Source: Escherichia coli O127:H6 str. E2348/69 (lineage in GTDB: Bacteria; Pseudomonadota; Gammaproteobacteria; Enterobacterales; Enterobacteriaceae). From it: a DNA stretch of 64,000 bases. Numbering within the stretch: the stretch's first letter is position 1; each line of letters starts with the position of its first letter. Made by a program: the position numbers. Below, one piece after another: positions 45,201-48,200 of this stretch. The DNA lies in the NCBI RefSeq assembly GCF_000026545.1, contig NC_011601.1. One strand, 5' to 3'.

Positions 45201-48200
45201 TGTTCAGACAGTCGGCTTTGCTGGTGGGGCCAGGACGCGCGCAGACTACCTTATGCACGTTCGGGAAGCGAGCGCACACTTCGTCAACATCACGCTGAGT
45301 ATCGGGGTCGTTGGGGTAGGTGCCAACAAAGATATGATAGTTTTCGTAGTCGAGCGTGGTCGCCGCCAGCTCGGCCATATTGCCGATGACGCCCGTTTCA
45401 TTCCACGCCGGAACCATAATCGCTAACGGTTTTTCATCTGGTTTATACAGTTCGCGGTAACTCATTCGCGGGTAGCGGCGATAAACACTCAACTTGCGTT
45501 TAATGCGGCGTACCCAGTAGACGACATCAATAAAAAAATCGTCCAGCCCGCTGATGAACATAATGACCGCTAACGTTATCGCGATTACTTTTAAGCCGTA
45601 GAGCCAGGTAGCAAAAACATCAAGAAGCCAGTCCACACAAAAACCTTACATTAACGCTGGTTATGTTTAGGGTGGCGTATATTAAGGTTTTTTATGAATT
45701 GTGACAGCTTTTTATCATTAATAGGTATTACTATTGCGGCATGTTATTTTTACACTGGTTATAAAAGTTGCCGTTTGCTGAAGGATTAAGCGGGTAATAT
45801 GATAACAAACCTTGTCCCCCGTGCATCTGACGTTACTGCAACAGTGCCTTTATGCGCGACAACAATCGATTTCACTATCGCCAGACCAATGCCGCTACCT
45901 TCGCCTTTTCGCTGGCGGGAAGGATCAACGCGGTAGAAACGGTCAAACAATCGCGGTAAGTGTTCGGGCGCAATGGGCGTACCGGGGTTTTCGACGGTAA
46001 CTTGCACCAGGTGATCGACCGTCTGGCAGCGCACAACAATTGTCTCTCCGGTTGGCGTATAACGCAGGGCATTAGAAAGCAGGTTGCTTAACGCCCGACG
46101 CAGCATCAGCGGATCGCCCGCAACCTGACACTCGTCGCCAACAAACCGCAGCTCCACGCCGCGATCTTCTGCTAACGCCTCGAAAAAATCGAACACTTTG
46201 CCGACTTCATCCGCCAGGTTGAGCATTTTCTTTTCGGGGATTAGCTGGTTGTTATCGGCCTGAGCGAGAAACAGCATATCGCTGACCATTTTCGCCATTC
46301 GCGTCAGTTCTTCGAGATTAGAGTAGTGCACATCTTCCAGCTCTTTCTGGCTGCGCGACTGGCTGAGGGCGATTTCCGTTTGCGTAATGAGATTAGTAAT
46401 AGGTGTGCGAATTTCGTGGGCGATATCCGCTGAGAAATTGGACTGGCGGGTAAAGACATCCTCAATACGCTCGATCATATGGTTGAACGACAGTACCAGC
46501 TGTTCCAGCTCAATCGGCACGGTCTGCGGGTCAAGGCGAACGTCGAGATCTTTCGAGGTAATGTTCTGGATTTGACGGCTGACGCTGCGGATCGGCGCGT
46601 GACCTTTATGTACCGCCAACAGCACGATAAAGACGATCAGGATGCTGATTACCGATGCGGTCATAATAAGTTTATTCATCAAATCATTGATGTAATGAAG
46701 ATGAAAATCGATCGAAAGCGCAATGTAGAGCGTATAAATCGGTTTGCCGTCCACCAGTGGGCCAACCGGCAAGCTAATCATCCGCCAGTTGCTGTGTTCC
46801 ATATGCCCGTGACCGTGGCCCGGCATCATAATCGTCGGGCCGGAAAGGAGATACACCTCGCCGCCCCGCGTGTCTTTATCGGGTATGGCATCACGTGCAA
46901 ACTCGCGGATATCAGGCGCACCGGGGGAGTGATACACCGTTTTGCCGTGGCTATCTGCCAGGGAAATCAACACGTTGGAATAACCACTGACGATATCTTC
47001 CAGCGTCATTAAGCGTCGGGCTTGCGTTTCGTCAGGGTGATTAAGTACCCGTTCAAGGGTGGCGCTAATCTCTTTTAAATCATTAATATCCTGCTCGGCA
47101 AAATGCACTTTTACTGAGTGGATCATGATCCATGCAAAGGCGAAAAACGCCGCGATGGTGGCCAGGCTGATAAAAAAGGTCAGGCGTGTTGCCAGCGAAA
47201 ACGGGCGCTGAAATGGCTTACTGACCATCCGGCACCTCTAGCATGTAACCCACGCCGCGCACGGTCTGAATCAACTTTGGCTCAAAGTCGTTGTCGATTT
47301 TGCCGCGCAGCCGCTTCACCGCCACATCAATGGCGTTGGTATCGCTGTCAAAATTCATGTCCCATACCTGCGAGGCGATAAGCGAGCGGGGCAGCACTTC
47401 GCCCTGATGGCGGAGGAAAAACTCCAGCAGAGTAAATTCTTTACTGGTCAGAGTGATGCGCGTGCCGCTGCGGGTGACTTTGCGGCTGACGAGATCGACC
47501 ATCAGATCGGCAACCTGAAACTGACTTTCGATAATCACCGCCGCCCCGCGCCGCAGTAGAGTGCGCACCCGCGCCAGCAGTTCAGCAAAAGCGAACGGCT
47601 TCACCAGATAGTCATCCGCCCCCAACTCCAGCCCCTTGACGCGATGTTCAATGGTGCCAAGCGCGGTAAGCAACAGAATCGGCATCCCCTTATTGGCGGA
47701 ACGCAACATGCGCACGATATCCCAGCCGTTCACGTCCGGCAGCATAATATCGAGGATTATCAGATCATAATCACCGGTCATCGCCAGATGGTAGCCATTC
47801 AGCCCGTTGTCGGCCAAATCGACCACAAAACCGGCTTCGGTTAACCCTTTGGTCAAGTATTCTCCGGTTTTCTTTTCATCTTCGACAATCAACAGTTTCA
47901 TATTTCCTCCGCATGTTGCCCGGGCAATTCTAGAGTAGCGGGATCAGATGGCAATCGCTTATTGGCAAAATGACAATTTTGTCATTTTCCTGTCACCGGA
48001 AAATCAGAGCCTGGCGAGTAAAGTTGGCAGCATAAAATCACCAGAAATTATGAGCCTATGTCTCCTTGTAAACTTCTGCCATTTTGTGTGGCCCTTGCGC
48101 TAACCGGTTGTTCACTGGCACCGGATTATCAGCGTCCGGCAATGCCCGTGCCGCAGCAGTTCTCACTCAGCCAGAACGGCCTGGTTAACGCAGCAGATAA

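What the first reader, a model, noticed from the sequence alone, without database searches (positions are those of the whole stretch)
47967..47988. Perfect 22-bp CusR palindrome in the cusRS/cusCFBA divergent promoter
AAAATGACAATTTTGTCATTTT is centred between the divergent cusR and cusC starts, consistent with the known CusR box and an intact copper/silver-responsive circuit.
Basis: partly seen in the sequence, partly recalled or inferred. Interest (0 to 1): 0.2.

Follow-up and report, generated by a model that had tools for sequence, protein, structure and literature searches.

The report
Known CusR operator in E. coli cus locus

Summary
The 22-mer AAAATGACAATTTTGTCATTTT is at 47967-47988 as reported. 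It is not a perfect 22-bp palindrome. It has two perfect 10-nt inverted arms around a central TT that is not self-complementary, which fits the published CusR box AAAATGACAAnnTTGTCATTTT. It lies 65 nt from the cusR ATG and 69 nt from the cusC ATG. All six cus genes are full length. CusR is 100% identical to the K-12 protein, and the box is identical to K-12 MG1655 595509-595530. At least 5148 complete E. coli records carry the exact 22-mer.

- The literature shows that HprR and PhoB bind the same spacer.
- The right arm plus a conserved third half-site (TGTCAC, 47991-47996) forms the published PhoB ChIP-seq motif.
- Comparing eight cus/sil-type spacers supports a cusC -10 at 48019-48024 (TAAAGT), and a cusR promoter with -35 at 47954-47949 and -10 at 47932-47927.
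- These put the box at about -53 and -57 from the two inferred transcription start sites.

Verdict: already known and of low interest. The one open point is whether CusR itself uses the third half-site.

The parts
47967..47988 (.). CusR box (also the HprR box): an interrupted palindrome, AAAATGACAA-TT-TTGTCATTTT
   Evidence: Fits the published consensus quoted. Identical to MG1655 595509-595530.
47967..47976 (.). Left arm, AAAATGACAA
   Evidence: 100% complementary to the right arm.
47979..47988 (.). Right arm, TTGTCATTTT. Its TGTCAT also forms the upstream repeat of the PhoB site.
47980..47997 (+). Pho-box-like direct repeat, TGTCATTTTC-CTGTCACC. It equals the K-12 PhoB ChIP-seq motif TGTCATTTTTCTGTCACC except for T to C at 47989.
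   Evidence: PMC10294691, Table 1, peak 595521, cusR/cusC. Coordinate mapping. Polymorphism.
47991..47996 (+). Third half-site, TGTCAC, 11 bp downstream of the right-arm TGTCA. GTCAC is invariant in 8 cus/sil-type spacers.
   Evidence: stack of spacers anchored on the box.
48019..48024 (+). Inferred cusC -10 hexamer, TAAAGT. The pattern TAnnnT sits at the same distance from the box in all 8 loci. It implies a start site near 48030-48032 and a box centre near -53.
   Evidence: This is an inference from conservation; the start site was not measured.
47949..47954 (-). Inferred cusR -35 hexamer, TTGCCA, 12 nt from the edge of the box
   Evidence: 10 of 12 matches to consensus. The same spacing occurs in plasmid sil (TTGATA).
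47927..47932 (-). Inferred cusR -10 hexamer, TAGAAT. It implies a start site near 47920 and a box centre near -57.
   Evidence: TAGAAT sits at the same position in sil.
47218..47901 (-). cusR, an OmpR/PhoB-family response regulator of 227 aa
   Evidence: NF007346, 507.9 bits against a cut-off of 420. (Response_reg plus Trans_reg_C). (100% identical to K-12, D51 present).
45786..47228 (-). cusS, the sensor histidine kinase of 480 aa
   Evidence: NF007345, 980 bits. (H271 present; 10 substitutions relative to K-12, including M133I).
48058..49440 (+). cusC, the outer-membrane channel of 460 aa
49464..49796 (+). cusF, the periplasmic metallochaperone
49812..51035 (+). cusB, the periplasmic adaptor
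51047..54190 (+). cusA, the RND permease

Best explanation
The element is the chromosomal E. coli CusR operator. When periplasmic Cu(I) or Ag(I) activates CusS, CusS phosphorylates CusR at D51. A CusR dimer then binds the two inverted TGACAA/TTGTCA half-sites. From this single site it activates both divergent promoters. On one side is cusRS, which has a near-consensus -35 and -10 and so probably some basal activity, giving positive autoregulation. On the other side is cusCFBA, which has a -10 but no recognisable -35 and so probably depends on the activator. The box centre lies roughly 53-57 bp upstream of each inferred start site. The same DNA integrates other signals. HprR (H2O2/HOCl) recognises the same box. 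PhoB (phosphate limitation) binds the overlapping direct repeat made of the right arm and a third TGTCAC half-site. Shown here: the sequence, its context, intact genes, identity to K-12, and conservation. Taken from the literature on K-12: binding by CusR, HprR and PhoB, and induction by copper. Inferred: the promoter hexamers, the start sites, and activity in this strain.
For: The published consensus AAAATGACAAnnTTGTCATTTT, placed between cusRS and cusC(F)BA, is quoted. In K-12, one CusR ChIP-chip peak lies in this spacer. gSELEX places CusR and HprR in the same spacer. CusR~P activates both operons. The box is identical to MG1655 and CusR is 100% identical. The window's exact 40-mer occurs in 3379 complete E. 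coli records. The K-12 allele, which differs only at 47989 outside the box, occurs in 1769. The core AATGACAAnnTTGTCATT also sits beside cusR/silR homologues on a sil plasmid and in Lelliottia, Enterobacter, Providencia, Denitrificimonas and Collimonas. In these loci the -10-like hexamers keep a fixed distance from the box. The PhoB motif TGTCATTTTTCTGTCACC at 595521 and PhoB-dependent cusC expression come.
Against: No binding or induction was measured for this strain. The start sites are inferred from hexamer conservation, and I could not retrieve the primary papers (Yamamoto & Ishihama 2005; Munson 2000). The consensus is therefore cited second-hand. OmpR/PhoB-family regulators usually bind direct repeats, so the inverted-repeat binding mode is less typical, and the conserved third half-site is not explained by a simple symmetric dimer. 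CusS carries M133I in a metal-ligand loop, which could in principle alter sensing.
Confidence: 0.93

Rival explanations
1. Three-half-site operator. CusR (and SilR) may activate cusC or silC by binding head-to-tail, as PhoB does, to the direct repeat TGTCAT-N4-CTGTCAC (47980-47996). The left arm would serve mainly the cusR promoter. On this reading the 22-bp palindrome is only part of the functional CusR site.
For: GTCAC at 47992-47996 is invariant at a fixed distance in all 8 cus/sil-type spacers. These include a sil plasmid and a betaproteobacterium, although the search pattern selected only the palindrome core. The half-sites are spaced 11 bp apart, as in pho boxes. There is no mirror-image half-site on the cusR side. 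CusR belongs to the OmpR/PhoB family.
Against: The published definition of the CusR box is the inverted repeat alone. The hiuH/hprR box CATTACAAAATTGTAATG is also a plain 8+2+8 palindrome. PhoB binding already accounts for the direct repeat in E. coli, and its authors report that this site is conserved across species. Only 8 loci were compared, and several are close relatives.
Confidence: 0.25
2. The element acts mainly as an operator for PhoB or HprR, responding to phosphate or oxidative stress, and CusR control is secondary.
For: PhoB ChIP-seq and ChIP-chip peaks, gel shifts, and more than 2-fold PhoB-dependent cusC expression. The single high-level HprR gSELEX peak lies in this spacer.
Against: Copper induction of the cusC promoter requires CusRS. 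Unphosphorylated CusR binds only this spacer across the genome, and ChIP-chip found one CusR peak across the chromosome, in this spacer. The box is directly adjacent to cusR in every homologous locus found. PhoB gel shifts needed micromolar protein.
Confidence: 0.04
3. It is a chance AT-rich palindrome, or an RNA or DNA hairpin such as a terminator or a small RNA, with no operator role.
For: The 42-nt stretch folds to -10.8 kcal/mol with a z-score of -3.6, as any palindrome does.
Against: No matches occurred in shuffled sequence. The region has no terminator-like site and no Rfam match. The box lies upstream of both inferred start sites, so it is probably not transcribed. It is conserved in at least 5148 E. 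coli records and in distant cus/sil loci.
Confidence: 0.01

Closest known systems
E. coli K-12 CusR box (Yamamoto & Ishihama 2005, as quoted in bioRxiv 10.1101/2023.09.26.559466 / PMC11195947)
   Same: The 22-mer is identical (MG1655 595509-595530). It has the same position between cusR and cusC, and the CusR protein is identical.
   Different: Nothing differs within the box. Two flanking polymorphisms exist relative to K-12: 47989 C instead of T, and 48029 A instead of G.
PhoB site cusR/cusC (Fitzgerald et al. 2023, PMC10294691; Yang et al. 2012, PMC3465305)
   Same: The direct repeat TGTCAT-N4-CTGTCACC overlaps the right arm, and 17 of 18 bases match the K-12 motif.
   Different: The AT-rich linker is TTTC here, not TTTT. 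The site ends 22 nt upstream of the inferred -10. From my own knowledge of classical pho promoters, not checked here, a pho box usually lies about 10 bp upstream of the -10 and replaces the -35.
SilR box in the silRS/silCFBA spacer of IncH/IncF plasmids
   Same: The core AATGACAA-NN-TTGTCATT is the same. So are the distances to the TAGAAT -10 on the regulator side, to CCTGTCACC, and to GTAAAGT on the pump side.
   Different: The arms are 8 nt rather than 10, the spacer is CA, and the rest of the intergenic region has diverged. SilR is 87% identical to CusR over its first 133 residues.
HprR/CusR box at hiuH-hprR (CATTACAAAATTGTAATG; PMC9302797)
   Same: It is also an interrupted palindrome with a 2-nt centre and TTGTnAT half-sites, and it is bound by both HprR and CusR.
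   Different: The half-site is TTGTAAT rather than TTGTCAT, the arms are 8 nt, and it lies at a different locus outside this window.
LacI-family operator in Collinsella (AATGACAACGTTGTCATT)
   Same: It matches the same 18-nt pattern.
   Different: It has a central CG, occurs as tandem copies, and lies between a LacI-family regulator gene and a PTS EIIC/IIB gene with no CusR homologue nearby. This is a convergent resemblance, not a relative.

Membership tests
E. coli CusR box | Sequence fits AAAATGACAAnnTTGTCATTTT | tested here: met
   20 of 20 specified bases match and nn is TT. The consensus is quoted.
E. coli CusR box | Lies in the spacer between the divergent cusRS and cusCFBA operons | tested here: met
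   ORFs and NCBIfam equivalog or subfamily hits above cut-off. RefSeq annotation of genomes 100% identical over 47850-48110.
E. coli CusR box | Cognate regulator present with an intact receiver domain and winged-helix domain | tested here: met
   CusR is 227 aa and 100% identical to K-12, with D51 present. It carries PF00072 and PF00486.
E. coli CusR box | Bound by CusR in vitro or in vivo | not testable with these tools
   Shown for the identical K-12 sequence by ChIP-chip and gSELEX. Not tested for this strain.
E. coli CusR box | Confers Cu/Ag-dependent, CusRS-dependent induction on cusC and cusR | not testable with these tools
   The literature on K-12 and on a transplanted cus locus supports it.
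Pho box (PhoB site) | Two TGTCA-type 7-bp direct repeats with an 11-bp period and an AT-rich linker | tested here: met
   TGTCAT starts at 47980 and TGTCAC at 47991, 11 bp apart. The sequence matches the K-12 ChIP-seq motif in 17 of 18 bases.
Pho box (PhoB site) | Replaces the -35 element, about 10 bp upstream of the -10 (my own knowledge of classical pho promoters, not checked here) | tested here: inconclusive
   The site ends 22 nt before the inferred -10 at 48019-48024. The -10 is inferred, not mapped.
HprR box | Same recognition sequence as CusR; hprRS present in the genome | not tested
   Searches report shared recognition. hprRS is not adjacent to the box, and I did not search the rest of the window for it.
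Intrinsic terminator or structured RNA | GC-rich stem followed by a U-run, or a match to an Rfam family | tested here: not met
   No terminator-like sites and no Rfam matches at E-value up to 1. The stem is AU-rich.
LacI/GalR-type operator | Palindrome with a central CG next to a LacI-family gene | tested here: not met
   The centre is TT and the neighbours are cusR and cusC. Contrast the Collinsella locus.

The most novel reading that the evidence does not exclude
The invariant third half-site TGTCAC (47991-47996) may be a working part of the CusR/SilR operator itself. It is conserved at a fixed 11-bp phase in chromosomal cus loci, plasmid sil loci and even a betaproteobacterial locus. If so, the operator would be an asymmetric three-half-site element. 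The inverted pair would serve the autoregulatory promoter. A PhoB-like head-to-tail pair would drive the pump promoter, which lacks a -35. PhoB binding in E. coli would then be a by-product of this shared half-site grammar.
Probability: 0.2. Interest if true: 0.3.

Novelty: already known. Interest (0 to 1): 0.08.

Why it matters
It matters little beyond annotation. It confirms that this E. coli window carries a complete, probably functional copper/silver efflux regulon, with an operator identical to the one studied in K-12. The useful refinement is that this short stretch of DNA is a documented meeting point of three two-component systems: CusRS, HprRS and PhoBR. In addition, a conserved third half-site next to the palindrome is shared with plasmid-borne silver-resistance loci. 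That could be relevant to how sil and cus expression is tuned, and to the design of copper biosensors based on the cusC promoter.

Tried and rejected
- **Primary papers.** Yamamoto & Ishihama 2005 and Munson 2000 are not held. The consensus is therefore quoted second-hand, and no measured start site was found.
- **Other CusR-type sites in the window.** A search for TGACAANNTTGTCA with up to 2 mismatches found only chance-level hits (3 found, 2.84 expected).
- **Alternative cusC promoter.** The scan hit TTGGCA-16-AATTAT (48024-48051) would start transcription at the cusC ATG. It is not conserved in sil or the other loci, and it is polymorphic at 48029. I judge it unlikely to be the main promoter.
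- **Genome-wide pattern scan.** Six of them have a cusR homologue directly beside the motif: L028, L056, L087, L096, L100 and L124. About 41 are one Collinsella locus with a LacI-type operator. The motif alone is therefore not diagnostic, and the scan gives no unbiased estimate of how widely the box occurs.
- **Hairpin, terminator or RNA-family readings.** All rejected.

Full report
**Observation.** The window carries AAAATGACAATTTTGTCATTTT at 47967-47988, exactly as reported. It is not a perfect 22-bp palindrome, because the 22-mer differs from its reverse complement at two positions. The repeat finder shows why: two perfect 10-nt arms, 47967-47976 and 47979-47988, flank a central TT that is not self-complementary. 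The feature is not a chance event. No match with up to 3 mismatches occurred in 100 dinucleotide-preserving shuffles. Perfect inverted repeats with arms of at least 10 nt and spacers of at most 6 nt number 6 in the window, against a mean of 0.37 in shuffles. The cusR-cusC spacer is 47902-48057 (156 bp). The box midpoint, 47977.5, is 2 bp from the spacer midpoint. The box lies 65 nt from the cusR ATG and 69 nt from the cusC ATG.

**Context.** The neighbouring ORFs are:
- cusS, 45786-47228 (-)
- cusR, 47218-47901 (-)
- cusC, 48058-49440 (+)
- cusF, 49464-49796 (+)
- cusB, 49812-51035 (+)
- cusA, 51047-54190 (+)

Each matches its NCBIfam model over its full length, well above the curated cut-off. 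CusR has a receiver domain and a Trans_reg_C winged-helix domain. A 261-bp query around the box (47850-48110) is 100% identical to E. coli strains such as Nissle 1917, ATCC 11775 and S88, where RefSeq annotates the same genes. Some version of this region occurs in 5335 of 5426 complete E. coli genomes.

**Comparison with K-12.** The box is identical to MG1655 595509-595530. The spacer differs from K-12 at two positions, both outside the box: 47989 (C here, T in K-12) and 48029 (A here, G in K-12). The window's exact 40-mer around the box occurs in 3379 records, and the K-12 allele occurs in 1769. At least 5148 records therefore carry the exact 22-mer.

Protein comparison with a K-12-like genome gave the following:
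- CusR is 100% identical, with D51 present.
- CusS has 10 substitutions, with H271 present.
- CusC has 4 substitutions and 3 extra C-terminal residues.
- CusF has 1 substitution, and CusB and CusA have 6 each.
- No gene has a stop codon or frameshift.

The claim of an intact circuit is therefore supported at the sequence level.

**What the literature says.**
- The E. coli CusR box is quoted as AAAATGACAAnnTTGTCATTTT, lying between cusRS and cusC(F)BA (bioRxiv 10.1101/2023.09.26.559466, citing Yamamoto & Ishihama 2005). The window fits it exactly.
- ChIP-chip found one CusR peak, in this spacer (bioRxiv 10.1101/2020.08.17.251918).
- gSELEX found that unphosphorylated CusR binds only here. HprR gives its single high-level peak here and recognises the same sequence (PMC8249747).
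- CusR~P activates both divergent operons (PMC10920338; PMC12589874).
- Copper induction of the cusC promoter requires CusRS (PMC8966772).
- The second known CusR/HprR box, at hiuH-hprR, is CATTACAAAATTGTAATG. It has the same interrupted-palindrome design (PMC9302797).

A third TGTCA half-site, TGTCAC at 47991-47996, follows the right arm 11 bp after the right-arm TGTCA at 47980-47984. Together they read TGTCATTTTCCTGTCACC. This is the PhoB ChIP-seq motif reported for cusR/cusC in K-12 (TGTCATTTTTCTGTCACC, peak at 595521), apart from the 47989 polymorphism. In that study cusC was positively regulated more than 2-fold by PhoB (PMC10294691; coordinates checked). An earlier ChIP-chip study with gel shifts also placed PhoB in this spacer (PMC3465305). 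The right arm of the CusR palindrome therefore doubles as the upstream repeat of a pho-box-like site.

**Comparison of related spacers.** The silR-silC spacer on a plasmid carries AAAATGACAAcaTTGTCATTAT. Among them, the motif lies directly beside a cusR homologue in Lelliottia, Enterobacter, Providencia, Denitrificimonas, Collimonas and one short MAG contig.

I stacked eight spacers anchored on the box. Several positions that the search pattern did not select are conserved at a fixed distance:
- GTCAC of the third half-site, at 47992-47996.
- A TAnnnT hexamer, TAAAGT at 48019-48024 in the window. I take this as the cusC -10.
- On the other side, TAGAAT at 47932-47927 and TTGCCA at 47954-47949, with a 16-nt spacer and 10 of 12 matches to consensus. 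I take these as the cusR promoter.

These place the start sites near 48030-48032 and near 47920, and the box centre near -53 and -57. The cusC side has no recognisable -35, which fits dependence on an activator. The cusR side has a good -35, which fits basal expression plus autoregulation. These promoter assignments are inferences. I found no measured start site in the papers available.

**Mechanism.** The best explanation (confidence about 0.93) is the classical one. CusS senses periplasmic Cu(I) or Ag(I) and phosphorylates CusR. CusR~P binds the interrupted palindrome as a dimer and activates both divergent promoters. HprR and PhoB feed other signals into the same DNA.

The main open alternative (about 0.2-0.25) is that CusR/SilR itself uses the third half-site in a PhoB-like head-to-tail mode. 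The half-site is invariant even on sil plasmids and in a betaproteobacterium. The readings as a chance palindrome, a terminator or a structured RNA are rejected.

**The motif alone is not diagnostic.** About 41 of the 120 pattern hits are one orthologous Collinsella locus. There, tandem AATGACAACGTTGTCATT operators lie between a LacI-family regulator gene and a PTS EIIC/IIB gene, with no CusR homologue nearby.

**Verdict.** The element is already known and is identical to the K-12 reference. Interest is low. The added value is the documented overlap with the PhoB and HprR sites, and the conserved third half-site.

Noticed in passing
window 46830-46832 (cusS codon 133, minus strand); cusS 45786-47228: CusS differs from the K-12-like protein at 10 positions, including M133I. 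M133 is listed as a ligand of the internal Ag(I)/Cu(I) site in the periplasmic loop (PMC10100754). That paper reports that these sites are individually dispensable.
   Followed up: partly
window 49441-49463 (cusC-cusF junction): The cusC-cusF spacer is 23 nt here and 157 nt in K-12-like strains. K-12 has a 134-bp insertion, which I recognise from memory as ERIC/IRU-like (GTAAGCTCCTGGGGATTCAC...). The insertion also shortens K-12 CusC by 3 residues, so the window's CusC ends ...GGGWQQ.
   Followed up: partly
window 47989 and 48029: There are two spacer polymorphisms relative to K-12. The C/T at 47989 falls in the AT-rich linker of the PhoB direct repeat. The A/G at 48029 falls in a promoter-like TTGGCA hexamer. 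Exact 40-mer matches: the C allele at 47989 in 3379 records, the T allele in 1769.
   Followed up: partly
window 47984-48004: A second, imperfect inverted repeat, ATTTTCCTGT/ACCGGAAAAT (9 of 10 complementary, 1-nt gap), overlaps the right arm and the third half-site. By hand count, the K-12 T allele at 47989 would weaken it to 8 of 10. No function is known.
   Followed up: no
L057 4976-4993 and about 40 other Collinsella loci (e.g. L005, L045): The same 18-nt pattern, with a central CG, occurs as tandem operators between a LacI-family regulator gene and a PTS EIIC/IIB transporter gene. It is conserved across many Collinsella species-level genomes. L045 has an extra copy.
   Followed up: partly
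L096 (contig labelled Bacteroidales MAG, 2482 bp) versus L028 (Denitrificimonas caeni): The cusR-side spacer and box in L096 are nearly identical to the Denitrificimonas locus. This suggests a mis-binned contig or a recent transfer.
   Followed up: no
window 820-845, 6456-6480, 8004-8029, 33910-33933, 55797-55821: Five other perfect inverted repeats have arms of at least 10 nt. Two contain CCGGATGCG and look like REP elements to me. The others may be terminator stems.
   Followed up: no
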